This document shows, piece after piece, positions 1 through 50,100 of a stretch of 64,000 nucleotides of DNA (within the stretch, counting starts at the first letter, position 1; each line of letters begins with the position of its first letter). Position numbers and translations under genes: made by a program. The stretch lies in NCBI GenBank assembly GCA_000092065.1, contig CP000597.1. The stretch is one strand, 5' to 3'. This DNA comes from Ostreococcus lucimarinus (taxonomy: Eukaryota). The notes beneath the pieces were generated by a model that saw only the letters and a list, made by a program, of their open reading frames with translations, had not been told where the DNA came from and did no database searches.

Positions 1-1
1 G

Positions 2-1744
2 GGCGTCGGACGGTCGATCAAGGGCGTGGGGAATCTGCAGCAGACGCTCATGACGAACATGATGGTGAAGGTCATCGCGGGGGTGTCGGGAACGCTGAGC
101 GGGTTGTTGCTCGCGGGATTGGCGTATAAGGTGGTGGGAGGATATCAAGATGAGATAAAAGAGGCGAGGCGGGAGGTGCAGCGGCAACACCAGGAGAGGA
201 AGGCGCGATTGGCGCAGGTGAGACGATTGCTGAGCGGACCGCTGCGGGCGGCGGCGAAAGATTTGAGAAACAGATTGGAGTTTATATTAAAGGTGCCGCC
301 GAGACGTTCGAGCGGGGAACCGCCGAAGATTCGGGCGAATTATTTTGCGGCGCATTATCCCGATAATCCCAACGAAGCGGTGAATTCGACATTGTTTCGG
401 TTGTGTCGGTATTTGCACTGGGTCGAGCAGTTTCAACGCGGGGTGCAGTTGGAAGGCGTGAGCGAGCAGGACACGTGGCAGTTCGCGTTGGATCAACAGC
501 TTGATCGCGTGGCGATGGAGTTGGAGGTGAGCAACGAGCGCTACGACGCAACTGTACCGACAGAGCGTTTGACTGAGGTTTTCGCGCTCATACACGTTCG
601 TGAGGTGGAGAAGGAGAAGCGAGTCGAGGGCGACGGCGCTGACGACGGCGGAGACGAAGGTGAAAAGTTAGCGAGTAAACGGTCTATTTTTCGCCGAATC
701 GATTCCTCATTGAATGAGAAAACGACGGCAATGGAACCTTTAGAGGCTGCGGATTCGGCACCGAAGCGTCGCGTCGGACTCCTCAGCGCAGAGCCTCAGG
801 AACGTCTCAGTCGATTTCCGATGCGCTTGTTTCGCGACACGCAAGTCGCACTGGCGGAGGTTTTTGGTAAGCTCCACACACTTGAATCCGGCGCTGGTCA
901 GCCTCAACATGAAGGTAAGGTAAACCCGCACATGTTGTACACAGAGTTCGTCATGAAACTCGAAGAGGCGCAAATGCTCTACGAGCGCACCGTGGAAGAA
1001 CAAGCCTCCGAAGGTCTCGTTGATGCAGCCACAGTCTTGGTCGCGCAGCAAGAAAATCTCCAAGCCGATCCGTGGTTTAGATGGATGCTTCCGCTGCAGC
1101 TTCAAATTCGACGCTTGGCCATGCTACAGTCCCAGACGTCCAAGCTGTTAACGAGGAAGGAGGCTCGCGAACTCCTCGCCGCGAGGGCACGTTTGCGCGG
1201 CGTCCTCGACGGCTTGAACGGTTTACTTGACGTGCTCGACAGACGATTGGACGATCCGTTGTTCAACAAGCCCAAACACAATTTAAAGCAAAAGCACTTG
1301 GCGACGGCTAAAATCGCAACGAAGAAGGTAAAGTTGGAGGCGTTGAAGCGCGAAAAGTCACTGGCGCGATGGAACAAGTTGAAACAAGCGATCCCTTACG
1401 TCGCAAAGTATCGCCGCCTTCCACCTCCACCTGCGAGCAAGAGATATATCCGTTTAGTGACAGGAGATGAGTTACTGGCGTTCGTTCGACGGTATAAAGC
1501 GAAAGCCGTGGCGGGCGTCGTCTCTGCGGTGAGCACCGCCGTCGTGAGCACTGTCATCTCGAAAGTTGTCCAGCATCAAAACAAGCGGCCAAAAGCGGTT
1601 GAAATCGTGAAAACCGAGAGCGAAAGCGCTGAAAGCGAAGGCACGACTAAGGAGAAAAAGACGAACGATGAAGCAATCGAAGGTGAATTCGCACCGCCCA
1701 CGAAGACGCGTCCTAGACTTCGCAATAGTGTGAAAGTCAAGTGA
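2..1744 (+). CDS. Hypothetical protein, 5'-partial. It has an N-terminal hydrophobic segment and long Glu/Arg/Leu-rich predicted coiled-coil regions.
   Basis: A 572-aa ORF whose track start is a GTG. The frame stays open upstream to position 2, so the gene probably begins before the window. Codon usage is GC3-rich, like neighbouring genes. No family recognised. Confidence 0.45.
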   Translation, partial: GVGRSIKGVGNLQQTLMTNMMVKVIAGVSGTLSGLLLAGLAYKVVGGYQDEIKEARREVQRQHQERKARLAQVRRLLSGPLRAAAKDLRNRLEFILKVPPRRSSGEPPKIRANYFAAHYPDNPNEAVNSTLFRLCRYLHWVEQFQRGVQLEGVSEQDTWQFALDQQLDRVAMELEVSNERYDATVPTERLTEVFALIHVREVEKEKRVEGDGADDGGDEGEKLASKRSIFRRIDSSLNEKTTAMEPLEAADSAPKRRVGLLSAEPQERLSRFPMRLFRDTQVALAEVFGKLHTLESGAGQPQHEGKVNPHMLYTEFVMKLEEAQMLYERTVEEQASEGLVDAATVLVAQQENLQADPWFRWMLPLQLQIRRLAMLQSQTSKLLTRKEARELLAARARLRGVLDGLNGLLDVLDRRLDDPLFNKPKHNLKQKHLATAKIATKKVKLEALKREKSLARWNKLKQAIPYVAKYRRLPPPPASKRYIRLVTGDELLAFVRRYKAKAVAGVVSAVSTAVVSTVISKVVQHQNKRPKAVEIVKTESESAESEGTTKEKKTNDEAIEGEFAPPTKTRPRLRNSVKVK

Positions 1745-1781
1745 AGTAGCGGCGACCCGCGCGAAATGTGTAATTAAAACG

Positions 1782-1995
1782 TAAAATCGTAAAGTCTTTG
1801 TCGCTCGTTTTCATCCTCCTTTAAGTTCTTCTAAAGTCTTCTTATTCGCAATCTTGGTCGCTCTGTTAATGGCTCCCGCGGCGTAGTATAAAATCGTAAA
1901 GTCTTTGTCGCTCGTTTTCATCCTCCTTTAAGTTCTTCTAAAGTCTTCTTATTCGCAATCTTGGTCGCTCTGTTAATGGCTCCCGCGGCGTAGTA
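1782..1995. repeat. Perfect 107-bp direct tandem duplication: copy A 1782..1888, copy B 1889..1995.
   Basis: The two copies are identical by eye. Copy B carries the last ~26 codons plus stop (1918-1920, minus strand) of the 1918..4362 gene. Copy A duplicates that C-terminal fragment in the 3' flank. Confidence 0.9.
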
Positions 1996-4362
1996 CCACT
2001 CGGCCCACTGTATGACGCCGTCGCCGTTCAAATCAGCCGCTTTGGCAATTTTCTGAACGGTCGCGTTGTGAGAGTCCCACAACTTGGCACCCGGAACGAG
2101 GGTTTCGATGAACATATCAATCGTCTTCGCGAACTGCTCTTGATTGAGGTAGGGGAACGGAAACTTTTCATCCGGATTGGACGCGTTGGCTTCAAACAAC
2201 GCGAAGACCTCTTTGTCGAAATCGATTGCAACCGCCGACCTTGTCTCCGCAGAACCTCCAGCGTTCAAACCAGTGCGAGAGCCGATGGCGAACACATCTT
2301 GCGCGAAAGCTTCGATCGCTGAAACGAGTGATTCGTTCAATGCATCCGTAACCGCCGGCCCTGCAGATTCCATCACAGTCGCTTCGGCTCTTCTACTCAA
2401 ACCCGTGTTGAGTCGATGACCGACGACGGTCACCTCAAAATCAGAAGCTACTTGAGCGACGAAAGCAAGAACAAAAGCGTAAACGTTGCCCATGATCTCT
2501 TGAACCGAAGGGATGTCAGCAAAGTCCTTGGTGATCTCCCTCAACGCTCGCGCGTCCGGACGGAAGCGGCTGAGGTCCTTGACGTCGCGCTTCGGCGCTT
2601 GGCGCACCAGCATTCGGATTCTTCGCCCGAGCATGTCGAGCTCAAAATCGGACAACACTGTAGATAAAATATCCACTATGAGTTCAAAACAGTTAATGTA
2701 CAGCAAACGCTCAATGTTATCGGGAATAGCCTTGACGTTGTACATGGGATCGCGAAGGAGGTAGTCGACAAATTCCGAAATCGCCTCTCGAGTCTGCTTT
2801 TGTGCCTTTTTTCTCGCAGCTCTGCTCGGGTCTTCATCACCGTCGATGCTCACACCCAAAATTTGACGTGCCTCCGAGGCTATGTTGCTAAAGTCGCCTC
2901 TACGAATTTCGTTCCCCATTTGCTGCAGGAGGTCGCGGGCGCTGGGTGTCTTCTTCGCGGCGTCGCCTTCGTCGAATGTCAAGGCGTCGTCGTCGAACGA
3001 CGCTGACACGTTTGCTCCGCTCGACGGACTGAGCACACGCATAGAAATGTTGAAACCCAAGTTACTCAACACGGGCTCTTTTCCTATCTCACCGAACAAG
3101 CCGGTGAGGAGGTTGATGTACGTGTCGCGCTCGATTCGTCGGGGAAGAAACACTGACGAGATGGCCATCGCTCGAGTGTCCATATATTCATCGACGCACA
3201 CTTCGATAAGTTGCTTCACCGCGCGCTGCGTCTCCAAACGATCCTCGTCGGAAAAGGAGATGTTTGCAAACGCCTCTCGAGTATCGTCGTCGTAAGGCTC
3301 TAACGCAAACTCCACGGTGAATCCTTTAATCTTTGCCTCCATCGTGAGCGCCTCGGATAACATACCCACCGCAACCTTGGCGACGTTTTCTTGGAGATGC
3401 GGGAACAGATTTGTCGGTGGCGGGGCTTTGAGCTCTTCGCGCGCAATCTTGCGGAGCGTTTGATTCGACAGATTCGGCACGATGTCTAAGTAGCCGTCGC
3501 CGCTCGCGACGAGCTTAGTCCTTCGCCCTTCCGCCATGCCATCCTCTTCGCTCGACACTTCAAAGACGAATTCCCGGTCGAAAAGTTGCAACTTGAACGT
3601 TTTTAACGTATCTTCGAACACGGTCCATCCCGTGAGCGCGCCGTTCGTGTAGAGCTTCCTTTCGAGCGGCCCGGGTAACAAGACGGGAATCCCGCTCGTT
3701 TCGCCGACGACGTCGCCGATAAACTTTGCGAGCTCCTGCTCCTTGATACCACTCTTTTCCGGAACGTGTCTGGCGTCCAGATAATCGCTCATGATCAGAG
3801 GATGCCCCAAAACGCTCGCTCCGACGAGGTTCTGTCGTAAGTTCTTCATCGCCGACGCGTACGCCGCCTTGCAAACCTCGCGATACACCTCGCTCTCCGC
3901 GAACTCCGGAACGAACGGAATATCGTACGCATCGTTAATAATCTTCGCGTAACGATCCAAAACCTTCGCCTCCGCGGATTTCTTCTTCCCTCTCGACGCC
4001 CTGGCCAGCGCCACCGCGGCGGCCCCTCCCGCGACCGCGACGCCCGCGCCCGCCGCCGCGCTCGCCCCCGCCCCGCGCGTCCCCTCCCGCGCTCGCGCTT
4101 CCGCCGCCGTCGACACCGACGCCACCATCTTCGTCCCATCGCGCGCGCGCGCCGGTCGCAATCCCTCCATCGCGTCCTTCGCCGTCCTCTTCGCGCCCTC
4201 GTCCGTCTTCTTCGCGTTCGCGTTCGCGTTCGCGTTCGCGTTCGCGCGTCCCGCGCCCCGCGCCGGTCGCCCTCGCCGATCGCGCGTCCGTCCGACCCGC
4301 GCGCGCGTCGTCGACCCGCGTCCGCCGGTCGTCGCGCGCGCGCGAGACGCTCGCGTCGCCAT
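1918..4362 (-). CDS. Hypothetical 814-aa protein. Its C-terminus has one canonical EF-hand loop (DLNGDGVIQWAE). Its N-terminus is Arg/Ala-rich and may be a targeting sequence.
   Basis: Long uninterrupted ORF with GC3-rich codons. The EF-hand 12-residue loop consensus D-x-N-x-D-G-x-I-x-x-x-E sits directly before the stop. The ANANANANANA stretch is encoded by the (TTCGCG)6 repeat at 4211..4246. Confidence 0.6.
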   Translation of the reverse strand: MATRASRARATTGGRGSTTRARVGRTRDRRGRPARGAGRANANANANANAKKTDEGAKRTAKDAMEGLRPARARDGTKMVASVSTAAEARAREGTRGAGASAAAGAGVAVAGGAAAVALARASRGKKKSAEAKVLDRYAKIINDAYDIPFVPEFAESEVYREVCKAAYASAMKNLRQNLVGASVLGHPLIMSDYLDARHVPEKSGIKEQELAKFIGDVVGETSGIPVLLPGPLERKLYTNGALTGWTVFEDTLKTFKLQLFDREFVFEVSSEEDGMAEGRRTKLVASGDGYLDIVPNLSNQTLRKIAREELKAPPPTNLFPHLQENVAKVAVGMLSEALTMEAKIKGFTVEFALEPYDDDTREAFANISFSDEDRLETQRAVKQLIEVCVDEYMDTRAMAISSVFLPRRIERDTYINLLTGLFGEIGKEPVLSNLGFNISMRVLSPSSGANVSASFDDDALTFDEGDAAKKTPSARDLLQQMGNEIRRGDFSNIASEARQILGVSIDGDEDPSRAARKKAQKQTREAISEFVDYLLRDPMYNVKAIPDNIERLLYINCFELIVDILSTVLSDFELDMLGRRIRMLVRQAPKRDVKDLSRFRPDARALREITKDFADIPSVQEIMGNVYAFVLAFVAQVASDFEVTVVGHRLNTGLSRRAEATVMESAGPAVTDALNESLVSAIEAFAQDVFAIGSRTGLNAGGSAETRSAVAIDFDKEVFALFEANASNPDEKFPFPYLNQEQFAKTIDMFIETLVPGAKLWDSHNATVQKIAKAADLNGDGVIQWAEWYYAAGAINRATKIANKKTLEELKGG
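4211..4246. repeat. Hexanucleotide microsatellite (TTCGCG)6 inside the coding sequence.
   Basis: Read directly: ttcgcg x6. It encodes (AN)n on the minus strand, in the N-terminal region of the 1918..4362 gene. Confidence 0.85.
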
Positions 4363-4955: not shown

Positions 4956-6086
4956 TCACGTTTGAATAACGATGACTTGCGGCTGTTGCGGCGTAACGGC
5001 GACGGGAGCGCCGCGGGTGGGGATGCCGAGGCGCGCGCGGAGCTTGTCGTCGGCGCGGCGGCGCGACCTGACGCAGAGCCCGATGAGAGTCAAGATGATG
5101 ACGAACGCAATACAACCGACGGCAATACCGGCGATTTCAACGTCGCTCAACGTATCCGCGGAGCGCAACGGAACGATGGTGCCCGGAACGCCGCCGCCAC
5201 CCGAGGAGCCACCCGCGGAGACTGACGTCGTCGTCGTGATGCCCAAAACCTGGACGGGAATATTCGAGCTTGTAGTAGCGTTGTTTCCGAGCTGACCTTT
5301 GTCATTGTAACCCCAGCACTGCACCGTGTCGCCGGCGAGCGTGGCGCAATTGAAGTCGTAACCCGCGGAGACTGACGTCGCCGTCGTGATGTTGGAAACC
5401 TGGACGGGAATATTCGAGCTTGTAGTAGTGCCGTCTCCGAGCTGACTATTGACATTGACACCCCAGCACTGCACCGTGCCGTCGGCGAGCATGGCGCAAT
5501 TGTGGCTGCCACCCGCGGAGACCGACGTCGCCGTCGTGATGCCCGAAACCAGGACAGGAGTAAGTCGGTTTGTCTTAGTGCCGTCTCCGAGCCGACCGTC
5601 GAGATTGTAACCCCAGCACTGCACCGTGCCGTCGGCGAGCATGGCGCACGTGTGGGCGCCACCCGTGGAGACCGACGTCGCCGTCGTGATGCCCGAAACC
5701 AGGACAGGAGTAGGTCGGTGTGTAGTAGTGCCGTCTCCGAGCTGACCTTTGTCATTGTAACCCCAGCACTGCACCGTGCCGTCGGCGAGCGTGGCGCACG
5801 TGTGGCCGCCACCCGCGGAGACTGACGTCGCCGTCGTGATGCCCGAAACCAGGACGGGAGTAAGTCGGTTTGTAGTAGTGCCGTCTCCGAGCTGACCGTT
5901 GGCATTGTAACCCCAGCTCTGCACCGTGCCGTCGGCGAGCAGGGCGCACGTGTGGCTGCCACTCATGGAGCCACCCGCGGAGACTGACGTCGCCGTCGTG
6001 ATGCCCGAAACCAGGACGGGAGTAAGTCGGTATATAGTAGTGCCGTCAGCGAGCTGACCGTCGCCATTGCTACCCCAGCACTGCAC
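4956..6086 (-). CDS. RCC1-repeat (beta-propeller) protein with a C-terminal transmembrane anchor. At least 6 RCC1-like repeats (WGxNxxGQLGDGTTT...HTCAxLADGTVQCWG).
   Basis: The repeat signature is typical of RCC1/HERC blades. The hydrophobic stretch IAGIAVGCIAFVIILTLIGLCV followed by RSRRR looks like a membrane anchor. The ORF begins at a GTG. The same frame continues upstream to an ATG at 6282-6284 and is interrupted only by an in-frame TAG at 6207-6209 (see findings). Confidence 0.7.
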   Translation of the reverse strand: MQCWGSNGDGQLADGTTIYRLTPVLVSGITTATSVSAGGSMSGSHTCALLADGTVQSWGYNANGQLGDGTTTNRLTPVLVSGITTATSVSAGGGHTCATLADGTVQCWGYNDKGQLGDGTTTHRPTPVLVSGITTATSVSTGGAHTCAMLADGTVQCWGYNLDGRLGDGTKTNRLTPVLVSGITTATSVSAGGSHNCAMLADGTVQCWGVNVNSQLGDGTTTSSNIPVQVSNITTATSVSAGYDFNCATLAGDTVQCWGYNDKGQLGNNATTSSNIPVQVLGITTTTSVSAGGSSGGGGVPGTIVPLRSADTLSDVEIAGIAVGCIAFVIILTLIGLCVRSRRRADDKLRARLGIPTRGAPVAVTPQQPQVIVIQT

Positions 6087-6803
6087 CGTGCCGTCGGCGA
6101 GCGTGGCGCACGCGTGGTCGCCGTGTCTCGCGGAGACCGACGTCGCCGTCGTGATGTTGACAACCTGGACGGCGGTATGTCGCTCAACCTTCGACCCGTC
6201 TCCGAGCTAACCGTTGTCATTGATACCCCAGCAATACACCGCGCCGCCGATCTCGACGCACATGCGAGAGTAACCGTTACCCATCGCGCGCGATTCGAAA
6301 ACCCTTCGATCGCCCGCTCGCCCGCGGCTCGTCCGCGCCGCGCGCGTCGCCCGTCGCGCACCGCCCGGGTCTCTCGCGCCGCGCGCGTCGCGATCGGTTC
6401 CTCTCGCACCGACGGTCGCGCGCGCGAGTCCGGCGACGGCGCGCGCGCGACGCGACGCGACGGCGAAAACTCAAAACCCAACGCGGGCGTCCGAGTCCGA
6501 GTCGACGCCCCGTCGACGCGTCGTGTCTGACGCGTAAAATGTTAGAAATCTGAAGAGTAAAATATGACGTATAGCTTTCCCTAGTTAACCTATAATTGTA
6601 ATCATCATCACTCATCGACGCACTAGGCCCGATTGCTCACGATCATATAAGGTATAGCTCGCAAAAACGGGCCTTTTCTGAAACTCGATTTTTGCTAGGG
6701 TTTAGCGACTCCGGTTTTCCGACGGAGGAATTGCGTGCGGGTAGTTCGCATCGTCGGTACTCGTCGACGCCACTCGTCGTTGCGCGAGTTGATCGATATA
6801 CTC

Positions 6804-23946: not shown

Positions 23947-24275
23947 GAGGCGCGGTCGAGCGCGTCGCGGTCGCGTCGACGCGTGCGCGCGTCGCGGTGC
24001 GCGGCGACGGCGACGCGCGCGCGCGCGACGCGACGGGGCGATGCGCGGGGTCCTACAGGCAAACAGTGAGAATGCAAATACGAGTCCAGTGGGCTTCGTA
24101 GAGTAATGATGGTGCGAACTCGAGATATAGATACACGGTGTTTGACTTTGATGGTATACGTGTCGAATGTCCGGTAACGTGTGTTTATGTTATCGCGCGC
24201 GCGCGCGACGACGCGCGCCGTCGGCGCGGTAAATCGCGACGCTCGGCGCGCGACGACGGACGACGGACGACGGCG

Positions 24276-25433
24276 ATGTCGATCACCGCGCTCACGAACA
24301 CGGTACGCATCGATTCGCGCGACGCGGCGAGCGAACGGCGCGCGCGTCGCGACGCGCGGACGCGACGCCGCGCGACGTCGCGCGTTACCCTAGGGCTTCG
24401 CGACGACGCGATGACGACGGCGCGCGGCGCGGACGCGGCGCGCGGAAGGGCGGCGCGGGACGCGCGCGCGGCGGGAAAAATTATTGCGGACGCGGCGACG
24501 GGCGATGGGCGACGGCGACGGCGAATCGAGGACGCGCGAGAGGCTGGAACGCACGACTGACGACTGAGGGTACGGCGACGCGACGCAGGTGTCCGCGCTC
24601 TCGTTGAGCTCGCGTGGGAACGCTCGCGGGACGTTCCGGGTGCGCGCGGTGCGACCGACGAAGAGTTTCTCTTCGGCGGTCGTCGCGTCGGATGATGAAC
24701 GATTGCGATTGCACAACTTGAGCCCGCTCAAGGGGTCGCGTCGCGAGAAGAAGCGCATCGGTCGCGGTTACGGCGCGGGTCAAGGTGGCTCTTGCGGCGA
24801 CGGGTAAGTGGTTTTTTTGTTTTTGTGCGCGCGCTGAATCGCGCGCGCGACCTCGTTCGGACATCGCGAGACAACAGTGGATTGTTTTTGCGTGCGCGAC
24901 CTGTCGGGCAAACGCGGAACATCGCGGGACAACTGTGGTTTTTTTGTGCGCGCGACCTCGTCCTGACATCGCGAGACTGACGTACGCCCAAAATCCGGGA
25001 ACTTAGCATGCGCGGTCAACGCGCAAGGAGCGGCCCTGGCGTGCGCCCCGGCTTTGAGGGCGGGCAAACACCCATGTACCGCCGCTTCCCCAAACTCAAG
25101 GGCATCGCCGGCGGCATGGGCGCCGGCAAACCGAAGTTTGTCACTGTGAACGTCGGCGACCTCGAGGCGGCCGTCCAAGCGAAGAAACTCGACGCGAGCG
25201 CCGAGATCACGATCGAAGCGCTCAAGAGCGCCGGCGTGATCAAAGCGACTGGCTACTACAGAAACTTGCCGTTGAAGGTTTTGGGTGAGGGCGAGGTGTC
25301 GGGCTTGAAGGTGAAGGCGGCCTCCTTTTCTCAAAGCGCCTCGGAGAAGCTCACCGCGGCTGGCGGTGCGGCGGAAGTTTTGCCGGCGAAGGAAAAGTGG
25401 AGTCGTCAGGCTGCCGCCGCGGCCAAGGCGTAA
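24276..25433 (+). CDS. Nuclear gene for organellar (bacterial-type) ribosomal protein uL15 with an N-terminal transit peptide. Three exons: 24276..24302, 24589..24803, 25007..25433.
   Basis: Exon 2 plus exon 3 encode [17 protein letters not shown]|[32 protein letters not shown], which aligns with the bacterial L15 core GRGxGSGxGKTxGRGHKGQKSRSG..VRxGFEGGQxPLxRRLPK. Intron 2 (24804..25006) has a GTAAGT donor and TAG|C acceptor and joins in frame. Exon 2 has no in-frame ATG. The 27-nt exon 1 (ATG 24276, MSITALTNT) ends at a GTACGC donor (24303) and joins the CAG|G acceptor at 24587-24588, giving a Ser/Thr/Arg-rich transit peptide. Confidence 0.8.
24804..25006 (+). other. 203-bp intron (GTAAGT...TAG) of the uL15 gene, composed largely of about three imperfect ~55-bp tandem repeats. 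It is introner-like.
   Basis: Repeat units of the form gcgcgacctcgt..gacatcgcgagac..tg(tgg)tttttttgtgc recur three times inside the intron, and T-rich tracts sit next to the donor. Confidence 0.7.
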
Positions 25434-25537
25434 ACGTCTTCGTACGTTTCGTCGAGGTCGAACAATCATTCATCCTGTAGAACTGAGTCGGGCTTAACCC
25501 GCGCGCATTCAATTACAACAACCTAAAAATATCTCAA

Positions 25538-26068
25538 CTACCGACCGTCCAAAACGCTCGCGTCCACGCCGTCGAGGTTCATCTTATTGCGCACCGCCTG
25601 CGCGGGCACGCCCATCTTCAGCATCTTGAAGTAAATGGAGTACTTCGGATCGCTCGCGCGCGCGTTCGTCTCCGGCGTCGCCGCCGTCGCCGCCTCCGCC
25701 GTCGCCGCCTCCGCCGTCGCCGTCGCCGCCGTCGCCGCCGCCGCCGTCGCCGTCGCCGCCTCCGCCGTCGCCGCGTCCGCCGCGTCCGCCGCGTCCGCGC
25801 CCCGACCGTCGTCCTCGCGCGTCGCCGCCTCCGCCGTCGTCGTCGTCGTCGTCGCCGTCCCCGCCTCGAGCGCGCGCTCCAACAGCGCCGTCCTCGCCTC
25901 CGCCTCTCGCAGCGCGCGCGCCGCCGCGCCCAGCTTCGCCTCCGCGCTCGCGCACAGCGCGTCGAGCGTCGTCGCCGTCCGCGCCGCCCGCGCGTTCAGC
26001 GCGCTCGCCATCGCCTGGTCGTTCGCCGCGGGCAAGCGCGCGCGAAGTCTCGCCAGCGCGTCGCCCAT
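25538..26068 (-). CDS. Small coiled-coil protein with a conserved C-terminal KYSIYFKMLKMGVPAQAVRNKMNLDGVD motif. Possibly WASH-complex subunit 3 (CCDC53)-like.
   Basis: The architecture is N-terminal coiled coil, Thr/Ala-rich low-complexity middle, and a conserved C-terminal motif. I recall that motif (YFKMLKMG.P...V..KM.L.G.D) from CCDC53/WASHC3 orthologues, but only from memory. ATG at 26066-26068. The longer track ORF extends into the bidirectional promoter. Confidence 0.4.
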   Translation of the reverse strand: MGDALARLRARLPAANDQAMASALNARAARTATTLDALCASAEAKLGAAARALREAEARTALLERALEAGTATTTTTTAEAATREDDGRGADAADAADAATAEAATATAAAATAATATAEAATAEAATAATPETNARASDPKYSIYFKMLKMGVPAQAVRNKMNLDGVDASVLDGR

Positions 26069-26131
26069 GCGTCGGTCGTCGCGCGCGCGTCGCGACGTGC
26101 GGACGACGCGCGCGTTCGAATTCAAACGCGC

Positions 26132-26188
26132 GCGGCATCGCTCGACGCGCGCGGCATCGCTCGACGCGCGCGGCATCGCTCGACGCGC
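26132..26188. repeat. 19-bp tandem repeat x3 (gcggcatcgctcgacgcgc) in the divergent promoter between the 25538..26068 (minus) and 26238..26930 (plus) genes.
   Basis: Three perfect copies read directly. They lie 64 bp upstream of the minus-gene ATG and 50 bp upstream of the plus-gene ATG. Confidence 0.85.
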
Positions 26189-26237
26189 CGTCTTCGCGCC
26201 GACGCGCGCGTCGGCGGGCGCCATAATACACGTCGCG

Positions 26238-26930
26238 ATGTCGGCGTCGCCGCGATTGAGCGCGGTGCGGCTCGCGGCGAGCGTCGAGGCGCGCATCGAC
26301 GAGACGCGCGAATCGATCGAACACGTGCGAATCGCGTGCGAAGCGGCGACGGAGGCGGCGCGGATCGCCGAACGGGACGCGAGAGGGTCGTCGAAGGCGC
26401 TGCGAGCGAAGGTGGAGGCGCTGTGCGAGCTGAAGCGGGAGAAGCTGGCGCGGGTGGACGCGCTGGAGGCGCTGCGGCGAGAGTACGAGTGCGCGGCGAC
26501 GACGGAGTTTAATTTTGAGGAATACCTGACGAAGAAGACGAAACATTACGCGAGTAAGCGTCGACAAGAGTTGGAATACTTGATAGCGTTCGATGAGGCG
26601 GTGCGGGGGGTGGATGGGGACGATTTGGACGCGGATTTGGTGTTGGACGAAGAAGACGGGACGGCGGGGGCGAGAAACGCGAAGTGTCCGCTGACGGCGA
26701 AACGGATCGAGGCGATCGATGAGCCGGTGGAGGATAAGATGGGATTCATCTACGAGAAGGACGCGATCATGAGGTACATCGGGTCGAAAAAATCGGTGGA
26801 TTGCCCAGAGGCGGGGACGAGGCACAAGGTGAGTAAGGCGGATCTCAAGCCTTCGCGGACGGCGCTCAAGATGAAACAAAGAGCCGAGGGACTGGACGAG
26901 GACGATTCCGGGCAGTTACTGTCGCCGTGA
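26238..26930 (+). CDS. NSE2: NSE2/MMS21-like SUMO E3 ligase (SP-RING, zf-Nse2) of the SMC5/6 complex.
   Basis: C-terminal SP-RING signature: KCPLTAKRIEAIDEPVEDKMGFIYEKDAIMRYIGSKKSVDCPEAGTRHKV (C-x...H...C.P..G). An N-terminal coiled-coil region is also typical of NSE2. ATG at 26238. The upstream part of the track ORF is antisense to the neighbouring gene. Confidence 0.65.
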   Translation: MSASPRLSAVRLAASVEARIDETRESIEHVRIACEAATEAARIAERDARGSSKALRAKVEALCELKREKLARVDALEALRREYECAATTEFNFEEYLTKKTKHYASKRRQELEYLIAFDEAVRGVDGDDLDADLVLDEEDGTAGARNAKCPLTAKRIEAIDEPVEDKMGFIYEKDAIMRYIGSKKSVDCPEAGTRHKVSKADLKPSRTALKMKQRAEGLDEDDSGQLLSP

Positions 26931-45900: not shown

Positions 45901-47045
45901 TGGACGTCACTGGAACAGGACACTTCACGGGCGCGACGACGATCGATGACCAACTCACCGTTGGCGGTAACGTATTGATCCAAAGTACAACCAATAAGAT
46001 TTCGTTTGGCAGCACAGCGCGTCAGTTTATTGAAACGAATAACGGTGGAATCGGAACGCAGTCAAAGACGCTGTATTTTCGTTCACAGGATTTTTTCGGC
46101 TTTTACAAAAATGGCGGTCACAACAGCGCCGATCTGAACCCAGGCGGAAGCGGGACTCTCCTTGTCGCCATTCGCGGTGACATCTCTGGTGCTCGAATGG
46201 CGATTGGATCTTCAGACACAGATAGTGGCTACGCTTTTAAGGTCACCGGGTCGGCGCAAGCGACCGCTGCGCTCGACGTAGGCACGACGCTTAATGTGGC
46301 GTCGTACGCGACAATTCGCGGCGACTTGCGCCTCAATACCGGTACTCAGCAAATAAATTTTGGTACCCAGCACCGTCAGGTTGCTGCGCTCGCGACTGGC
46401 GGCATCGGAACGCAGTCGAACACTGTATACTTTCGTTCACAGGACTTGTTTGGCTTTTATAAAGGTGGCGGCCATAGCTCTACCGCTCTTGATCCAGGCG
46501 GAAGCGGGACTCTCCTTGTCACCATTCGCGGTGACGTCTCTGGTCCTCGATTAGGAGTCGGAGTCACGAATCCCTCCTACGCTCTCGAAGTCAATGGAGC
46601 GGCGCACGTGTCTGGCGCACTGAGCAAGGGAAGTGGCTCTTTCAAGATCGATCATCCACTTCCTGAAATGAAAGACACGCATAATTTGTATCACTCCTTC
46701 ATCGAGGGACCACGGGCGGATCTCATCTACAGAGGCAAGGTTCGTTTGCAGAACGGTAGGGCGATGATAGACATCGATGCCGCATCAAACATGACGACAG
46801 GGACATTTGAAGCACTCAATCGCGACGTGCAGTCGTTCACGTCAAATGAAAGCGACTGGGACCCCGTCCGAGGTTCTGTCGTGGGCAACGTCCTCACCAT
46901 TGAGTGTCAAAACCCCACTTCGACGGCACTCATCAGCTGGCTTGTCATCGGTGAGCGTCACGATCAGCACATGTACGACACAGATTGGACCGATGAAAAC
47001 GGTCGTGTCGTTCCGGAACAATTGAAAAAGAGTGCGACGACGTGA
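36951..47045 (+). CDS. Giant (3364-aa) repetitive fibre-like protein with a PPC-type beta-sandwich domain, about 7 near-identical 0.86-1.1 kb tandem repeats, four VGIG-motif repeats of ~130 aa, and a conserved ~150-aa C-terminal domain. The 5' end is uncertain.
   Basis: PPC (pre-peptidase C-terminal)-like domain at ~37355-37630: YKYYKVNVACVEAAQPLTLELTTSNGDANLYVS...GYYYVSVYGALSSTYKLRAL. Repeat units start at 38733, 39663, 40527, 41601, 42606, 43506 and 44613, all in frame and rich in GVTGATTLASV/GVTGAATVGGTL sub-repeats. The region 45040-46560 has four repeats carrying G(N/K)VGIGTxxPxYxLDVxG and YFRSxxxFxFxxxG motifs. The C-terminal domain SFKIDHPLPEMKDTHNLYHSFIEGPRADLIYRGKVRLQNGRAMIDID resembles the conserved C-terminal domain of bacterial and phage tail-fibre-like proteins (recalled from memory). 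ATG at 36951, but the first ~100 aa are Arg/Asp-rich low complexity. Confidence 0.7.
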   Translation: MRLDDGDDARRRDARAVRARATRTPTRAATTRGDVVDAAAADDDIDDDAVARPDATRRRRRDDDATTTTRDDETTRAREGASGRRRARERGRATRRRRRLGTAAAAAATAALAATVERVGVDASTALTKGVARNGFVSSSGYKYYKVNVACVEAAQPLTLELTTSNGDANLYVSRSAQPTTSSYEQRSVNVGNALDSVTITSPVNGYYYVSVYGALSSTYKLRALTTMFTGKHPCTGFRITDSDVSSVGSGSGNQFILQEALTASAAAGFTADVSVDGDVILGDAYTDSVTAKGELKLGVTDSTYYAITRQSPSAPSSNPGGALSIVGANATYQGGSVKILGGTGGSGAGGDVVIEAGSASGGNGGDLKLRGGTSNSGTGGDVVIDAGDSTTQASSYEGIIHIGPTSASFVRVGESSNKQVQTDIFGDLTVHGNLLTTNDVVYANSYTSYVQVSTSQDGMFHQEVRAPKITGLDAEDITGTPTSTLTLDAGMRGSQQHVVIAPSEATAVYIGSSTSTIPVSIRQGANAGDVRVHADGSGALSVTSAAGQDLTLASGDDVVVTTAASKTLALKQDSTSILSWDAAGAVTVNSVSGQDLTLSTGGSAAVTVDSTGQVGIGTTTPGKTLDVTGTARVSGATTLSSTLDVTGATTLASVGVTGAATVGGTLGVTGATTLASVGVTGAATVGGTLGVTGATTLASVGVTGAATVGTTLGVTGATTLTGDVTMSNDLTVSGALTVTSDAAVSLTSASGSDVSLTSAGTGGIVLTSTDDITLDAADDVTIDAAGALSLEQGGTSILSWTDTGAVTLNSLGGQTLSVSSLSSAGNAGAVSVSGGTTTGTSSNTGGDLTLQSGGAPAGSVNGDVLVDSATGLGTAGSITLRQGVGGERVSVDANGAVSLDTHSGQDLTLSTGGSAAVTVDSTGQVGIGTTTPGKTLDVTGTARVSGATTLSSTLGVTGATTLASVGVTGAATVGGTLGVTGATTLASVGVTGAATVGTTLGVTGATTLTGDVTMSNDLTVSGALTVTSDAAVSLTSASGSDVSLTSAGTGGIVLTSTDDITLDAADDVTIDAAGALSLEQGGTSILSWTDTGAVTLNSLGGQTLSVSSLSSAGNAGAVSVSGGTTTGTSSNTGGDLTLQSGGAPAGSVNGDVLVDSATGLGTAGSITLRQGVGGERVSVDANGAVSLDTHSGQDLTLSTGGSAAVTVDSTGQVGIGTTTPGKTLDVTGTARVSGATTLSSTLGVTGATTLASVGVTGAATVGGTLGVTGATTLGGTLGVTGATTLASVGVTGAATVGTTLGVTGATTLGGTLGVTGATTLASVGVTGAATVGTTLGVTGATTLASVGVTGAATVGGTLGVTGATTLTGDVTMSNDLTVSGALTVTSDAAVSLTSASGSDVSLTSAGTGGIVLTSTDDITLDAADDVTIDAAGALSLEQGGTSILSWTDTGAVTLNSLGGQTLSVSSLSSAGNAGAVSVSGGTTTGTSSNTGGDLTLQSGGAPAGSVNGDVLVDSATGLGTAGSITLRQGVGGERVSVDANGAVSLDTHSGQDLTLSTGGSAAVTVDSTGQVGIGTTTPGKTLDVTGTARVSGATTLSSTLGVTGATTLASVGVTGAATVGGTLGVTGATTLGGTLGVTGATTLASVGVTGAATVGGTLGVTGATTLGTTLGVTGATTLASVGVTGAATVGTTLGVTGATTLTGDVTMSNDLTVSGALTVTSDAAVSLTSASGSDVSLTSAGTGGIVLTSTDDITLDAADDVTIDAAGALSLEQGGTSILSWTDTGAVTLNSLGGQTLSVSSLSSAGNAGAVSVSGGTTTGTSSNTGGDLTLQSGGAPAGSVNGDVLVDSATGLGTAGSITLRQGVGGERVSVDANGAVSLDTHSGQDLTLSTGGSAAVTVDSTGQVGIGTTTPGKTLDVTGTARVSGATTLSSTLGVTGATTLGGTLGVTGATTLASVGVTGAATVGTTLGVTGATTLASVGVTGAATVGTTLGVTGATTLTGDVTMSNDLTVSGALTVTSDAAVSLTSASGSDVSLTSAGTGGIVLTSTDDITLDAADDVTIDAAGALSLEQGGTSILSWTDTGAVTLNSLGGQTLSVSSLSSAGNAGAVSVSGGTTTGTSSNTGGDLTLQSGGAPAGSVNGDVLVDSATGLGTAGSITLRQGVGGERVSVDANGAVSLDTHSGQDLTLSTGGSAAVTVDSTGQVGIGTTTPGKTLDVTGTARVSGATTLSSTLGVTGATTLASVGVTGAATVGGTLGVTGATTLASVGVTGAATVGTTLGVTGATTLASVGVTGAATVGTTLGVTGATTLGGTLGVTGATTLASVGVTGAATVGTTLGVTGATTLASVGVTGAATVGGTLGVTGATTLTGDVTMSNDLTVSGALTVTSDAAVSLTSASGSDVSLTSAGTGGIVLTSTDDITLDAADDVTIDAAGALSLEQGGTSILSWTDTGAVTLNSLGGQTLSVSSLSSAGNAGAVSVSGGTTTGTSSNTGGDLTLQSGGAPAGSVNGDVLVDSATGLGTAGSITLRQGVGGERVSVDANGAVSLDTHSGQDLTLSTGGSAAVTVDSTGQVGIGTTTPGKTLDVTGTARVSGATTLSSTLDVTGVTTLASVGVTGAATVGTTLGVTGATTLASVGVTGAATVGGTLGVTGATTLGTTLGVTGATTLASVGVTGAATVGTTLGVTGATTLTGDVSVGTSSALSFGSATRQMINLYGTNNAIGVQSSTMYFRSAYNFAFFEGGVYTNTELDPGSGGTLRMMIQKTTGNVGIGTASPDYELDVVGDINFSGNLYQGGSLFASPWTESSGNVYRSSGNVGIGLTNPTYNLHVAGTGRVSTTLSVGQDLTIDTAGDLNFAATHRQMINLRVGAEGFGIGTQMDTTYFRSPGHFAFYEDGTHSTTDLDANGGTARLVIRSGGKVGIGRTNPSYDLDVVGDINFSGNLYQGGSLFPSPSPWTESGSNVYRSSGNVGIGLTNPSYKLDVTGTGHFTGATTIDDQLTVGGNVLIQSTTNKISFGSTARQFIETNNGGIGTQSKTLYFRSQDFFGFYKNGGHNSADLNPGGSGTLLVAIRGDISGARMAIGSSDTDSGYAFKVTGSAQATAALDVGTTLNVASYATIRGDLRLNTGTQQINFGTQHRQVAALATGGIGTQSNTVYFRSQDLFGFYKGGGHSSTALDPGGSGTLLVTIRGDVSGPRLGVGVTNPSYALEVNGAAHVSGALSKGSGSFKIDHPLPEMKDTHNLYHSFIEGPRADLIYRGKVRLQNGRAMIDIDAASNMTTGTFEALNRDVQSFTSNESDWDPVRGSVVGNVLTIECQNPTSTALISWLVIGERHDQHMYDTDWTDENGRVVPEQLKKSATT
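38733..45035. repeat. Coding macrosatellite: about 7 tandem copies of a 864-1107-bp unit, each built from 33/36-bp sub-repeats. Copies are near-identical at the DNA level.
   Basis: Stretches of several hundred bp are letter-identical between copies, for example 39121-39660 versus 39961-40500. Unit lengths differ by multiples of the ~69-bp sub-repeat pair. Confidence 0.9.
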
Positions 47046-47163
47046 ACGCGCGTCAGTGTAACACTGACAAACGAGTCGCCGAAACACGCACCTTGAAAAC
47101 GCACGCACGATCAACGGCAAAACGTTACGGCTGTGTGGCGCATTGAGTCTTAATATTGTAAAT

Positions 47164-50100
47164 CTATAGTCTAAAAGATAGCTTTGCGAACTCTCCGTCG
47201 GACACCGCGTCGCTCGTCTGCCCCCCCGTCGCGCCGTCATCGCTCGTTTCGCTTCCGAGCAACGAAGACGCCTTTCGCCGGCGCTCAGGCGAATCGTCCG
47301 CGTCCCGAAAATCGTAGAGATAATCGCTATGCCTTGCATAATGCACCCGCGTCGCTTCTTCTCCTGAGGCATTAAATCTATACGACTCGGGAGAAAATGA
47401 TGACTGAGCGAATCTGTCCTCATCTGACGCGCTCTCTTCGGCGTCGTACGATTCACCCATGGAATACGCCAGTTCGCTCGGTTCACGTTCACTCAGTCCA
47501 TCATTCGGTGTATTCAGCCCTGGTTGGCGTCCACTAGATGGGTCTTTCATCTCAAACGCGTAATGATCGTCATCCGAGTCAGCATCCGTGGAAGATGCGT
47601 AAGCACGCCGCGACTCAAACCTGTTCTCACCAAAAAATGCGGCGCCGCGTAGAGGTTCCGGTGGTTCCAGTTCTAGTTCGGGTTCCGGTTCCGGTCGCAC
47701 TTCCCGTTCTGCTGTCACATCCGTCTCTGGTGCGAGATCTAAGATGGACTGGTTCCGTCCGGGCACGACGTTACCCTGCTCTCCATTCGTCTCGAATGCG
47801 GCGAGCGTCGCGACGTGATCGCGAGCGACACTCCCGCCTCGGTGACCCTTTACGACGGCACGTTCTTCCTGAGCGCTGTGGGTGAATCTCTCAATCACGC
47901 TACGCGCTTTGGTTGATGCGTCAAATAACGCGCCACCAGGTTCGCGCGACCGCACGACTTTCTTTTTAATTCTGATTGCGAGTCGTCGAAGCTGAATCGT
48001 GTGCTTGATAATTTCCACCACCTCCTCGGTGTCGTACAGTCCCTCGTCGTCCGCTGATACTGAGAATCTTTCGAGAATGATCGCCACAAATAAATTTCCG
48101 AGCAAAAATATAGAGATGATGACAAATGATATAAAGTATGGGACCGCAGCAGCGTTATACGAGCAGTCGATGCTGGATTCCAACATGAACGGTGCTTCTG
48201 TGCGTAAGCACGCCTCTGTTTGGTACACCTCGCCGAACGTGCCAACCCAGCCACCCGTGTACACCCCGATGAGAGATGAGCAAGCTGTGGTGAATCGTTG
48301 AAAGTTCGAGTACTTCGATAGCACGCCGCCTTCGAAAGGGCCGGTTTCATCGCCGAAAAGTGAAACACCCATGATGGCGTACGAAAAGATCGCGAGGGAC
48401 GATAGCGCGGCGACGTTTCCGACACCCGGAAGACTCATTATGAACGTGTTGAAGAGCGACCGCAGCCCAGAATGTGCCTTTACCAGTTTCAGTAATCTCA
48501 ACAATCTCACCAATTGTAGGTAATTCATGACACCGCCTGCGTTTAGACTTTGTCCGATCGCCTGTACGATGGAAACTACGACGACGAAGGCGTCCAGCCA
48601 ATTCCAATAATTCCTAAAGTAACGCGTCCGACCTTGCGCCATGAGCAAAAGCATCATTTCCAAAGAGTACACCGCAGTGAACGCGATAGACATGCAGAAG
48701 TGAGCATATTCTGCTGAACTGCTCATATTCGCCGTTTGTGTCAAGAGCTCGATTAAATTTGCGCACACTACCACGAGGATGAAGTACGCAAACTTTTTCG
48801 GCTTTGAGATATGATGCGCAAGTAGACGAGCTCGCGACCAAAGGCTTTTGCCTGGCGGCGGTACGATTCTGCGCCATGCCTCTGAATCTTGCGTGCTTGC
48901 ACGTAGTATAGCCTGCTGCCAGCGCCGCTGCGCTGGGGTGACAAACGTAAGCTTGTCTTGCGAAGCCATCTTGTTAAAGTTGTCCACGAGCGCCGTGACT
49001 AATAAATTCAACCAAAAGAAATTCCCGATGGCGACCGTCAATACAAAATAAAGAGCGGCGGCTTGGTTGTTATCTGTTTTCAAGCCGGTCCCGACGCCTG
49101 TGGTATCCATGGCGACCCACATGATTTCTTGCCAGTCATCGCCGGCGTGCAGTAGAAACGTCGATAAAAGTGCAGCGCCAAAGTTATCAAAGTTGAACTT
49201 TGCATTTCGCCACTTTCCTCCCGCTGCCTCGCACGTTGCTTGTGTAGTGTAGCTACTCGCATCATTCACCACTCGACACGACCAAAACTTACCCATAAAG
49301 AGCTCCATACCAAGAAGTGCGAAAATTGACATGGAAACTAAACCGATGAAGCACACGTAACTTACGGCTGGGATCGCGGAAAGTACAGTGTTAACGACAA
49401 GGCGGAGACCAGGGAAACGACGAATGGATCGAAGCGGGCGCATGATTCGCAAAAGTCGAAGTGCTCGCACGCTTCCGCTGCCATCGTCTGCCGCGGTGAG
49501 CGAAATGATTGATGTAAAGACGACGACGCCATCGAGAATGTTGAAGGAATTCTTCAGATACGCAGTCGGTCGCTCGTACAACCCGTAGGCGAATAACTTT
49601 AATACCATCTCTGCGCCAAATAAAGTCGTAAAAGTAATATCAACCGCGGTGTACACTTTTGCAGTATGAGATCCCGCCACTGGCCAAGTCTTTGTTTCTG
49701 TCGCGAGTAACACGCTACCAGCGATGATCATGCATAGAATGGCGTTCTCAAAGAGGTTGTGTGAAACAATTTTGTGCACCAAGTATTTGTATCTCTCGAC
49801 GGGAATCGTATCGTCGTACAGCGGTATAAAGTCGCCATCTTTTGTGACGATCACGCCCGGTATCTCTGACGACTGTTTCTTCACGCGTGAGGAGATGGAT
49901 CTCGTGATTGTCGCCGCCCAAGGACCGTGCGCGTCAAAGACGACATGCTCGTCTTCCTTACTCTTATCCTCGATGCTTAAACGATTGTTTTGCGCCGCAA
50001 ATCTTTTCGTCATACTGTGCCTAATAGAACTTTTGATAGAGCTAGTCACCCCGAACGCTTTGTCTTGATAGTCTTGATACTCCACAAACTTTGGCGTCAG

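What the first reader, a model, noticed from the sequence alone, without database searches (positions are those of the whole stretch)
24276..25433. uL15 gene with a 27-nt first exon, a GTACGC-donor intron, and a second intron built of internal tandem repeats (introner-like)
The mature uL15 coding exon has no in-frame ATG. A 9-codon exon (MSITALTNT) 286 bp upstream, ending in a GTACGC donor, splices in frame to a CAG acceptor and produces a convincing transit peptide. That is strong evidence for the model. The second intron (203 bp, GTAAGT...TAG) consists of about three ~55-bp imperfect direct repeats. Repeat-containing introns of ~200 bp are reminiscent of the introner elements that have colonised Micromonas genomes. 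If so, this locus records a relatively recent intron gain in a conserved ribosomal-protein gene.
Basis: partly seen in the sequence, partly recalled or inferred. Interest (0 to 1): 0.5.

Follow-up and report, generated by a model that had tools for sequence, protein, structure and literature searches.

The report
Annotated Ostreococcus plastid uL15 gene introns
This is the already annotated plastid ribosomal protein uL15 gene of the green picoalga Ostreococcus lucimarinus; its two introns are ordinary for the species, and the repeat-containing one is an old intron that several close relatives have lost, not a mobile "introner".

Summary
The three-exon model is correct. Its 222-aa product is identical to XP_001422103.1, "Plastid ribosomal protein L15" of Ostreococcus lucimarinus CCE9901, so the organism is not Micromonas. 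A transcript-derived protein from a sister strain spans both junctions.

Intron 1 and its 21-27-nt first exon are present in all seven Ostreococcus lineages whose sequence reaches that part of the gene.

Intron 2 does consist of three imperfect 45-70-nt direct repeats (z = 14 against shuffles). Both introns carry the species' canonical branch motif GACTGACG 26-28 nt from the acceptor.

The introner and recent-gain reading is not supported:
- Homologous, shorter versions of intron 2 sit at the same phase-2 site in two more distant lineages.
- The nearest relative (93% identical in the neighbouring ubiquilin) lacks it exactly, as do L011, L002, L018 and L019.
- The best reading is therefore an old intron with repeated precise loss and local tandem duplication.
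- No second copy appeared in the window, in the related loci, or in an exhaustive protein-space search with a working positive control.
- There are no terminal inverted repeats and no Rfam match, and the fold is no more stable than shuffles.

A whole-genome nucleotide search could not be run.

The parts
24276..24302 (+). Exon 1 of plastid uL15 (27 nt, MSITALTNT).
   Evidence: Part of the exact XP_001422103.1 model. The transcript protein P0184 reads MSITTLTNT|VSALS. Orthologous 21-27-nt first exons, each followed by GT[AG]CG[CT], occur in L017, L011, L008, L002, L013, L019 and L150.
24303..24588 (+). Intron 1 (286 nt, GTACGC...CAG, 75% GC): a canonical intron conserved across the genus.
   Evidence: Alignable to L017 (87% identity, z = 27) and L011 (85%, z = 18), and weakly to L008, L002 and L019 (z = 6-11). 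It occupies the same position in all lineages.
24389..24400 (+). CCTAGGGCTTCG motif inside intron 1. It contains TAGGGCTT, one mismatch from the reverse complement of the plant telo-box AAACCCTA.
   Evidence: Unique in the 64-kb window. A CCTAGGG(C/T)TTC-like motif is present in intron 1 of L017, L011, L008 (exact TAGGGTTT), L150, L019 and L002, with a variant in L013. A regulatory role is inference only.
24555..24562 (+). Branch-point motif GACTGACG of intron 1.
   Evidence: The branch A lies 28 nt from the 3' splice site. The motif equals the O. lucimarinus extended branch-point consensus (PMC2483917).
24589..24803 (+). Exon 2: the rest of the presequence and the N-terminal part of the mature uL15. 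It has no in-frame ATG.
   Evidence: Translation and homologues.
24804..25006 (+). Intron 2 (203 nt, GTAAGT...TAG, phase 2, 56% GC).
   Evidence: The boundaries are fixed by exact absence in L001/L017, L011 and L002 and by the transcript protein P0184. It is present almost unchanged in 12 environmental O. lucimarinus contigs. Homologous introns sit at the same site in L008-L010 and L150-L152.
24811..24880 (+). Repeat unit A: a T-run, then GCGCGCGACCTCGTTCGGACATCGCGAGAC, then AACAGTGG.
24881..24937 (+). Repeat unit B, a diverged copy with a GGGCAAACGCGGA insert. CCE9901 has a private 1-nt deletion here.
24938..24982 (+). Repeat unit C. Its core is 28/30 identical to unit A, and it ends in the functional branch motif GACTGACG (24975-24982).
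   Evidence: The branch A is 26 nt from the 3' splice site.
25007..25433 (+). Exon 3 (uL15 core, PF00828) including the TAA stop.

Best explanation
The locus is the nuclear gene for the plastid large-subunit ribosomal protein uL15 of Ostreococcus lucimarinus CCE9901, already annotated with exactly this three-exon structure. Both introns are ordinary U2-type introns of the intron-poor, non-chromosome-2 part of this genome. Their donors are close to the species consensus GTGCGTG, and each has one exact GACTGACG branch motif 26-28 nt from the acceptor.

Intron 1 splits off a 27-nt first exon a few codons into the presequence and is ancestral to the genus.

Intron 2 arose within Ostreococcus, before O. 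lucimarinus split from the P0039 and P0196 lineages. Since then it has been excised precisely in at least three lineages, including the nearest sister lineage of O. lucimarinus. The precision and the 3' position suggest recombination with a spliced cDNA; this step is inferred.

The internal repeats come from local tandem duplication of a 45-70-nt unit (T-run, GC-rich GCGACCTC..GACATCG core, branch-site-like tail), probably by slippage or unequal exchange, which is also inferred. Two GCGACCTC units were already present in the common ancestor. O. lucimarinus carries three, and two of them have been recently duplicated or homogenised. Only the last unit keeps a consensus branch site.

It is not a copy of a dispersed mobile intron family.
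For: **Identity**
- Neighbouring ORFs and the 222-aa product are exact matches to O. lucimarinus CCE9901 proteins (XP_001422204, XP_001422205, XP_001422099, XP_001422103) on a 366,173-bp record.
- Homologues carry PF00828.

**Splicing**
- The MMETSP transcript protein P0184 spans both junctions.
- P0211 (MAFTMTT|VSQALAG) confirms the exon 1-2 junction in the P0004 lineage.
- The species consensus is in PMC2483917.

**Age of intron 1**
- It has the same position and donor type in seven lineages.

**Age of intron 2**
- L008-L010 (149 nt) and L150-L152 (177 nt) carry collinear, alignable introns at the identical phase-2 GG| site, with shared blocks (CTGAATCG/CTCGATCG, GCGCGACCTC, GACAT..ACTGACG).
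- The win-L008 similarity of intron 2 (z = 6.9) equals that of intron 1 (z = 6.9).

**Loss**
- L017/L001, L011, L002, L018 and L019 have an uninterrupted GDG-MRGQ codon run.
- The neighbouring ubiquilin is 93% identical between the window and L017, but only 67% between the window and L008. The uL15 trees agree.

**Stability**
- Ten environmental O. lucimarinus contigs all carry the three-unit form.

**Repeats and absence of a family**
- The repeats are real (z = 14).
- No other copy exists in the window.
- An exhaustive HMMER search with the antisense translation recovered only the ORF from this same locus.
- There is no inverted repeat between the intron ends, no Rfam hit, and no excess RNA structure (z = +0.56).
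- Introner elements were reported as apparently absent from Mamiellophyceae genomes other than Micromonas CCMP1545 (PMC3879977).
Against: - The test for other genomic copies is incomplete. The window is about 0.5% of a ~13-Mb genome (genome size from my own knowledge).
- The protein-space search covers one strand and at most two reading frames, and only places where an ORF was called.
- Three or more independent precise losses are needed, which is many for one site.
- The lineage tree rests on one short gene plus one neighbouring gene.
- The P0047 lineage has a 235-nt intron displaced by 1 nt (phase 1) with only marginal similarity (z = 3.9). This fits neither simple inheritance nor simple absence.
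- The mechanisms of loss (cDNA recombination) and of duplication (slippage) are inferred, not shown.
Confidence: 0.85

Rival explanations
1. Intron 2 is a member of a dispersed, recently mobile intron family (introner-like) that inserted into uL15 in the O. lucimarinus lineage.
For: The intron is absent from the nearest relative and from several others. It has internal repeats. It is about 200 nt long and lies in a Mamiellophyceae genome, and the related genus Micromonas does carry introners (PMC3879977, PMC4540971).
Against: - Homologous introns sit at the same site in two lineages far more distant than the relative that lacks it. Their divergence equals that of the ancient intron 1.
- No second copy was found in the window, in the fetched related loci I compared, or in the search of 1.84 billion representative proteins, whose positive control worked.
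- There is no inverted repeat between the ends, and no duplication is visible when filled and empty sites are compared.
- The literature reports no introner elements in Ostreococcus.
Confidence: 0.03
2. The introns at this site were gained independently, or moved between lineages. Examples are reverse splicing or repeated insertion into a favoured protosplice site, or introgression from a P0039-like lineage into O. lucimarinus. They were not inherited and then lost.
For: - The distribution is patchy: present in three or four lineages and absent in five.
- The P0047 lineage has an intron 1 nt away, in a different phase, with little sequence similarity. This could be a separate gain.
Against: - The O. 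lucimarinus, P0039 and P0196 introns are collinear over their whole length and share the phase.
- Their divergence matches vertical descent, which argues against recent transfer.
- The exon sequence flanking the intron in the window is of the O. lucimarinus/L017 type, not the P0039 type.
- Precise intron loss is a well-established process, especially for highly expressed genes (general knowledge).
Confidence: 0.07
3. The repeated GCGACCTC..GACATCG units are kept by selection as a functional intronic element, for example a protein-binding or splicing-enhancer motif, or a regulator of uL15 expression. On this view they are not neutral duplication debris.
For: - The GCGACCTC motif occurs two or three times per intron in three lineages, although the rest of the intron has diverged strongly.
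- GCGACCTCKT is rare elsewhere in the window: one other hit.
- The three-unit form is nearly invariant in 12 environmental contigs.
Against: - Five lineages do without the whole intron, so it is dispensable.
- There is no RNA structure signal and no Rfam family.
- Near-invariance within one species is expected from low diversity alone.
- The enrichment in the window is weak: 8 of 100 shuffles reach 3 hits.
Confidence: 0.08

Closest known systems
XP_001422103.1 / ABP00420.1, 'Plastid ribosomal protein L15 large ribosomal subunit' of Ostreococcus lucimarinus CCE9901 (UniProt A4S9P4)
   Different: Nothing in the coding model differs. The annotation does not comment on the repeats in intron 2 or on its presence or absence in relatives.
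Canonical (non-chromosome-2) spliceosomal introns of O. lucimarinus, as described by Irimia and Roy 2008 (PMC2483917)
   Same: - GT-AG boundaries.
- Donors of the GT[AG][AC]G[CT] type, close to the consensus GTGCGTG.
- One exact extended branch motif GACTGACG at a fixed short distance (26-28 nt) from the acceptor.
- Lengths of 203-286 nt.
   Different: The donors GTACGC and GTAAGT each differ from the consensus at two of the seven positions. Intron 2 is less GC-rich (56%) than intron 1 (75%) and has T-runs and internal repeats.
Micromonas introner elements (IE-A to IE-D, ABC-IE, E-IE; PMC3879977, PMC4540971)
   Same: A short intron (about 200 nt) in a Mamiellophyceae gene, absent from some close relatives.
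   Different: - Different genus.
- No other copies detected.
- The position is shared with distant congeners.
- The repeats are internal tandem copies, not dispersed copies.
- No terminal repeats.
Precise intron loss in highly expressed genes, usually attributed to recombination with reverse-transcribed spliced mRNA (general knowledge)
   Same: The intron is removed exactly, with the reading frame and the flanking codons intact. The 3' intron is lost while the 5' intron is kept. The host is a ribosomal-protein gene.
   Different: The mechanism is not demonstrated here. Only the outcome is seen.

Membership tests
Plastid-type (bacterial-type) ribosomal protein uL15 | Ribosomal_L27A/L15 domain (PF00828) with the conserved GRGxGxGxGxTxGxGxKGQ..FEGGQxP core. 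| tested here: met
   All 120 listed homologues but one (P0060) carry PF00828. The motif [21 protein letters not shown]...[12 protein letters not shown] is visible in the translation. The product is an exact match to the protein annotated as plastid L15.
Plastid-type (bacterial-type) ribosomal protein uL15 | An N-terminal plastid transit peptide. | not testable with these tools
   No targeting predictor is available. The 43 residues before DDERLRLHN hold no acidic residue, 5 Arg + 1 Lys, and 20 Ser/Thr/Ala (read), which is typical of a transit peptide. That reading is inference. The closest named homologues are annotated as chloroplastic.
Canonical O. lucimarinus non-chromosome-2 introns | GT-AG boundaries, a strong 5' splice site near GTGCGTG, and an extended branch point GACTGACG close to the 3' splice site. 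| tested here: met
   The donors are GTACGCA and GTAAGTG. There is one exact GACTGACG per intron, with the branch A 28 and 26 nt from the acceptor. The consensus comes from PMC2483917.
Canonical O. lucimarinus non-chromosome-2 introns | Removal from the mRNA. | tested here: met
   A transcript-derived protein from a sister strain (P0184, 222 aa, MMETSP) is collinear across both junctions. No RNA-seq of CCE9901 itself could be examined.
Introner elements (Micromonas type) | Many similar copies in introns of unrelated genes of the same genome. | tested here: inconclusive
   - There is no second copy in the 64-kb window.
- The exhaustive HMMER search with the antisense translation returned only the ORF from this locus (P0234) plus two unrelated repeat proteins.
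- The metagenome DNA scan gave only chance hits.
- A six-frame word-indexed search gave nothing, but its positive control failed.
- The whole genome could not be searched at the nucleotide level.
Introner elements (Micromonas type) | A lineage-specific, novel intron position not shared with related species. | tested here: not met
   The same phase-2 site holds a homologous intron in the P0039 (L008-L010) and P0196 (L150-L152) lineages. By the neighbouring ubiquilin gene, L008 is far more distant from the window than L017, the relative that lacks the intron.
Introner elements (transposon type, Huff et al. 2016; recalled from my own knowledge) | Terminal inverted repeats and a target-site duplication flanking the insertion. 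| tested here: not met
   No inverted repeat links the two ends of intron 2. Comparing the filled site (GACGG|GTAAGT...CTTAG|CATG) with the empty site (GACGGAATG) shows no duplicated flank.
Intron-hosted small RNA (snoRNA or other) | A match to a known RNA family, or a fold more stable than chance. | tested here: not met
   The Rfam E-value scan of 24000-25600 gave one chance-level hit (E = 0.57). The minimum free energy of intron 2 gives z = +0.56 against shuffles.

The most novel reading that the evidence does not exclude
The GG|C site in uL15 is a hotspot of intron turnover in Ostreococcus. Intron 2 would have been lost precisely at least three times. In the P0047 lineage, a different intron would have been gained, or the old one would have slid by one nucleotide (phase 1 instead of phase 2). 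The repeated GCGACCTC units would be a selected intronic element. That would make this a compact natural system for studying intron loss, sliding and re-gain among very closely related wild picoalgae.
Probability: 0.08. Interest if true: 0.45.

Novelty: already known. Interest (0 to 1): 0.15.

Why it matters
The finding matters little beyond housekeeping. It confirms a reference annotation and removes a false lead: Micromonas-type introners in this window.

A modest by-product is a clean case of presence/absence of a conserved-site intron among Ostreococcus lineages that are abundant in ocean metagenomes, with exact loss in the nearest sister lineage. Such a site could serve as a lineage marker or as an example for studies of intron loss.

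The comparison also shows that the older O. tauri model CAL58517 starts at an ATG inside intron 1.

Tried and rejected
1. **Tandem Repeats Finder on 24200-25500.** It misses the intron-2 array, because the units differ by indels. The repeat finder and my own alignments were used instead.
2. **Self-BLAST of both introns against the window.** Intron 1 only hits generic GCGCGAC-rich low-complexity stretches. Intron 2 hits only itself.
3. **Metagenome-wide pattern scan with GCGCGACCTCKTN{3,14}ACATCGYG.** The pattern was too loose. None showed similarity beyond about 43 nt.
4. **Word-indexed protein search with a concatenated six-frame translation of the intron.** It returned no hits. However, it also failed to find the known antisense ORF from this locus, so it counts as a failed test, not a negative one.
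5. **Exhaustive HMMER search with the antisense translation.** The positive control was recovered and no other locus was found. Coverage is limited to one strand, at most two frames, and called ORFs.
6. **Intron-hosted small RNA.** Rejected on the Rfam and folding results.
7. **Scan of the window for further GACTGACG-bearing introns.** The apparent cluster at 5200-6250 is a 150-nt coding tandem repeat on the minus strand, not introns.
8. **The neighbouring CCDC53 C-terminus as an extra phylogenetic marker.** Only about 45 residues are alignable, so it adds little. It does show a GVPAQAV signature shared by the window, L017 and L011.

Full report
**Observation.**
- A 27-nt ORF start ([15 protein letters not shown]) is followed by GTACGC.
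- A CAG acceptor at 24586-24588 opens a 215-nt exon that has no in-frame ATG and is preceded by an in-frame TGA.
- A GTAAGT...TAG interval at 24804-25006 interrupts a Gly codon after its second base.
- A 427-nt last exon ends in TAA.
- Spliced, this gives 669 nt and 222 aa with the bacterial-type uL15 core.

Intron 2 contains three imperfect direct repeats (A 24811-24880, B 24881-24937, C from 24938).
- Each unit is a T-run followed by a GC-rich core, GCGCGACCTCGT..GACATCGCGAGAC.
- The A and C cores are 28/30 identical, and pairwise unit identity is 0.80-0.84.
- The best internal alignment scores 25, against 8.2 +/- 1.2 in dinucleotide-preserving shuffles, z = 14.
- Tandem Repeats Finder does not report the array, because of indels.

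**Whose gene it is.** Four neighbouring ORFs are exact matches to proteins of Ostreococcus lucimarinus CCE9901 on a 366,173-bp record. The window is therefore not Micromonas, and the gene model, including the 27-nt first exon, has been in the public annotation all along.

**Support for the junctions.**
- A 222-aa protein derived from an MMETSP transcript of an Ostreococcus strain (P0184) reads MSITTLTNT|VSALSLSS and GGSCGDG|MRGQ across the two junctions.
- Both introns contain exactly one GACTGACG, with the branch A 28 and 26 nt from the acceptor.
- Irimia and Roy (PMC2483917) reported GTGCGTG and GACTGACG as the 5' splice-site and extended branch-point consensus of O. lucimarinus introns outside chromosome 2. 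They found ACTGAC in 87% of such EST-confirmed introns and GACTGACG in 66.5%.
- The donors GTACGC and GTAAGT are near variants of that consensus. Orthologous donors in relatives are GTACGC, GTGCGC, GTACGT and GTGCGT.

**Intron 1 is old.** I fetched the orthologous locus from metagenome and genome contigs of eight other Ostreococcus lineages. These are L017/L001, L011, L008, L150, L002, L013, L019, and L018, which is O. tauri-like.
- Every lineage whose contig reaches far enough has a 21-27-nt first exon, then an intron of 243-400 nt at the same place.
- The first exons read MSITTLTNT, MSITTLTNT, MMSLSAHA, MLSLSANA, MAFTMTT, MAHALSMST and MALGGLA.
- In the P0004 lineage, the protein P0211 (MAFTMTT|VSQALAG) matches the predicted splice.
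- In O. tauri, the newer model OUS45195 (MALTLGA|IAPSALS) fits the same structure. The older CAL58517 (MRVQIAPS) starts at an ATG inside the 3' end of the intron.

**Intron 2 is shared, not private.** The state of the GDG|MRGQ site in each lineage is shown below.

| Lineage | State at the site |
|---|---|
| O. lucimarinus (window, L006/L007, ten environmental contigs L140-L149) | 203-206 nt, always three units. Differences are T-run length, one SNP, and a 1-nt deletion private to CCE9901 |
| P0039 lineage (L008-L010) | 149 nt |
| P0196 lineage (L150-L152, including GCA_035092725.1) | 177 nt |
| P0047 lineage (L013-L015) | 235 nt, displaced by one base (CTCG|GTACGT...ACAG|GGATG, phase 1) |
| L017/L001, L011/L012, L002-L005, L018 (O. 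tauri type), L019 | No intron |

- The 149-nt and 177-nt introns are collinear with the O. lucimarinus intron. They share a 5' T/GC-rich stretch, CTGAATCG/CTCGATCG, two GCGACCTC units, and GACAT..ACTGACG before the acceptor.
- The global alignment score of intron 2 between the window and L008 lies 6.9 sd above shuffles. That is the same figure as for intron 1 in the same pair. This is what vertical descent of both introns predicts.
- The site is continuous in the long read-through ORFs of the next-best homologues, such as P0007 and P0030. I take these, from their composition only, to be Micromonas and Bathycoccus.

**Direction of change.**
- The neighbouring ubiquilin gene is 93% identical (aa) between the window and L017, 67% between the window and L008, 58% to L002 and 45% to L013.
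- The uL15 trees and intron-1 identities give the same order: (window, L017), then L011, then the rest.
- The lineage that lacks intron 2 exactly, L017 (GACGGAATGCGC against GACGG[intron]CATGCGC), is therefore much closer to O. lucimarinus than the lineages that share the intron.
- The economical reading is one origin before these lineages split, followed by precise losses in L017, L011 and L002. If the P0047 intron is the same intron, there were further losses in the O. tauri and L019 lines.
- The losses remove the 3' intron and keep the 5' one in a ribosomal-protein gene. This is the pattern usually attributed to recombination with spliced cDNA. That mechanism is inferred, not shown.

**Origin of the repeats.**
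- Two GCGACCTC units are present in all three intron-bearing lineages, so a first duplication predates their split.
- O. lucimarinus has three units, and A and C are nearly identical, so a later duplication or homogenisation is specific to it.
- Each unit ends in a branch-site-like tail: ACAACAGTGG in A, ACAACTGTGG in B and ACTGACGTAC in C. Only the last one matches the consensus. This fits duplication of a segment that included the branch region, followed by decay of the upstream copies.

**Is it an introner?**
- BLAST of the intron and of each unit against the 64-kb window finds only the intron itself.
- No inverted repeat links its ends. Comparing the filled and empty sites shows no target-site duplication.
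- Rfam finds nothing, and the fold is no more stable than shuffles (z = +0.56).
- A DNA pattern scan of metagenome contigs was too permissive.
- A word-indexed protein search with all six translated frames found nothing, but it also missed the known ORF from this locus, so I discount it.
- An exhaustive HMMER search of 1.84 billion representative proteins with the antisense translation did recover that ORF (P0234, E = 4e-14). Otherwise it found only two unrelated tandem-repeat proteins.
- Verhelst et al. state that introner elements seemed absent from published Mamiellophyceae genomes other than Micromonas CCMP1545 (PMC3879977).

Taken together with the shared position, the introner reading is very unlikely. 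Only a nucleotide search of the complete genome, which I could not run, would close the question formally.

**Verdict.** The gene model is right and already annotated. The introner and recent-gain interpretation is not supported.

What remains is an ordinary pair of canonical Ostreococcus introns. One of them has a local tandem duplication and a tidy record of repeated precise loss among closely related wild lineages.

Interest is low. The unresolved 1-nt displaced intron in the P0047 lineage and the conserved telo-box-like motif in intron 1 are the only loose ends worth a note.

Noticed in passing
window 24389-24400 (intron 1); also L008, L150, L019, L002, L011, L017 and L013 intron 1: A CCTAGGG(C/T)TTC motif is conserved inside the otherwise fast-evolving intron 1 of uL15 in all Ostreococcus lineages sampled. 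In L008 and L150 it contains TAGGGTTT, the exact reverse complement of the plant telo-box AAACCCTA. In the window it is TAGGGCTT, and it is unique in the 64 kb. It may be a regulatory element of a ribosomal-protein gene.
   Followed up: partly
L013-L015 (P0047 lineage), e.g. L013 ~1760-1997: A 235-nt intron lies one nucleotide away from the intron-2 site (phase 1: CTCG|GTACGT...ACAG|GGATG). Its similarity to the O. lucimarinus intron is only marginal (z = 3.9). It is either a 1-nt intron slide or an independent gain, and this is unresolved.
   Followed up: partly
window 24895-24905 versus L006, L007 and L140-L149: The CCE9901 reference lacks one C in repeat unit B (GACCTGTCGGG against GACCTCGTCGGG) relative to all 12 environmental contigs. 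The leading T-run of the intron varies from 7 to 9 T among those contigs.
   Followed up: yes
L018 ~100-130 (O. tauri-type locus): The older O. tauri protein model CAL58517 (MRVQIAPS...) begins at an ATG that lies inside the 3' end of intron 1 (..GATGCGTGTACAG|ATTGCG). The newer OUS45195 (MALTLGA|IAPS) fits the conserved short first exon.
   Followed up: partly
window 5208-6246, minus strand (ORF 4956-6086): A 150-nt tandem repeat with about 6.8 copies at 83% match is coding on the minus strand (50-aa repeats). I read the repeats as RCC1-like from the sequence; this was not checked. On the plus strand it mimics intron signals (GTAAGTC, GACTGACG) by chance.
   Followed up: partly
window 25650-25860, minus-strand gene 25538-26296 (CCDC53/PF10152 homologue): A long GCC/GTC-rich low-complexity stretch encodes an Ala/Thr/Asp/Glu-rich region. 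Its length and sequence differ strongly between Ostreococcus lineages (ORFs of 175-252 aa), while the C-terminal ~45 residues are conserved.
   Followed up: partly
window 46000-52000 and 1-4000: GC content drops to 50-54% in these stretches, against 60-70% elsewhere in the window. The first overlaps the long ORF 47164-52740 on the minus strand. This was not examined.
   Followed up: no
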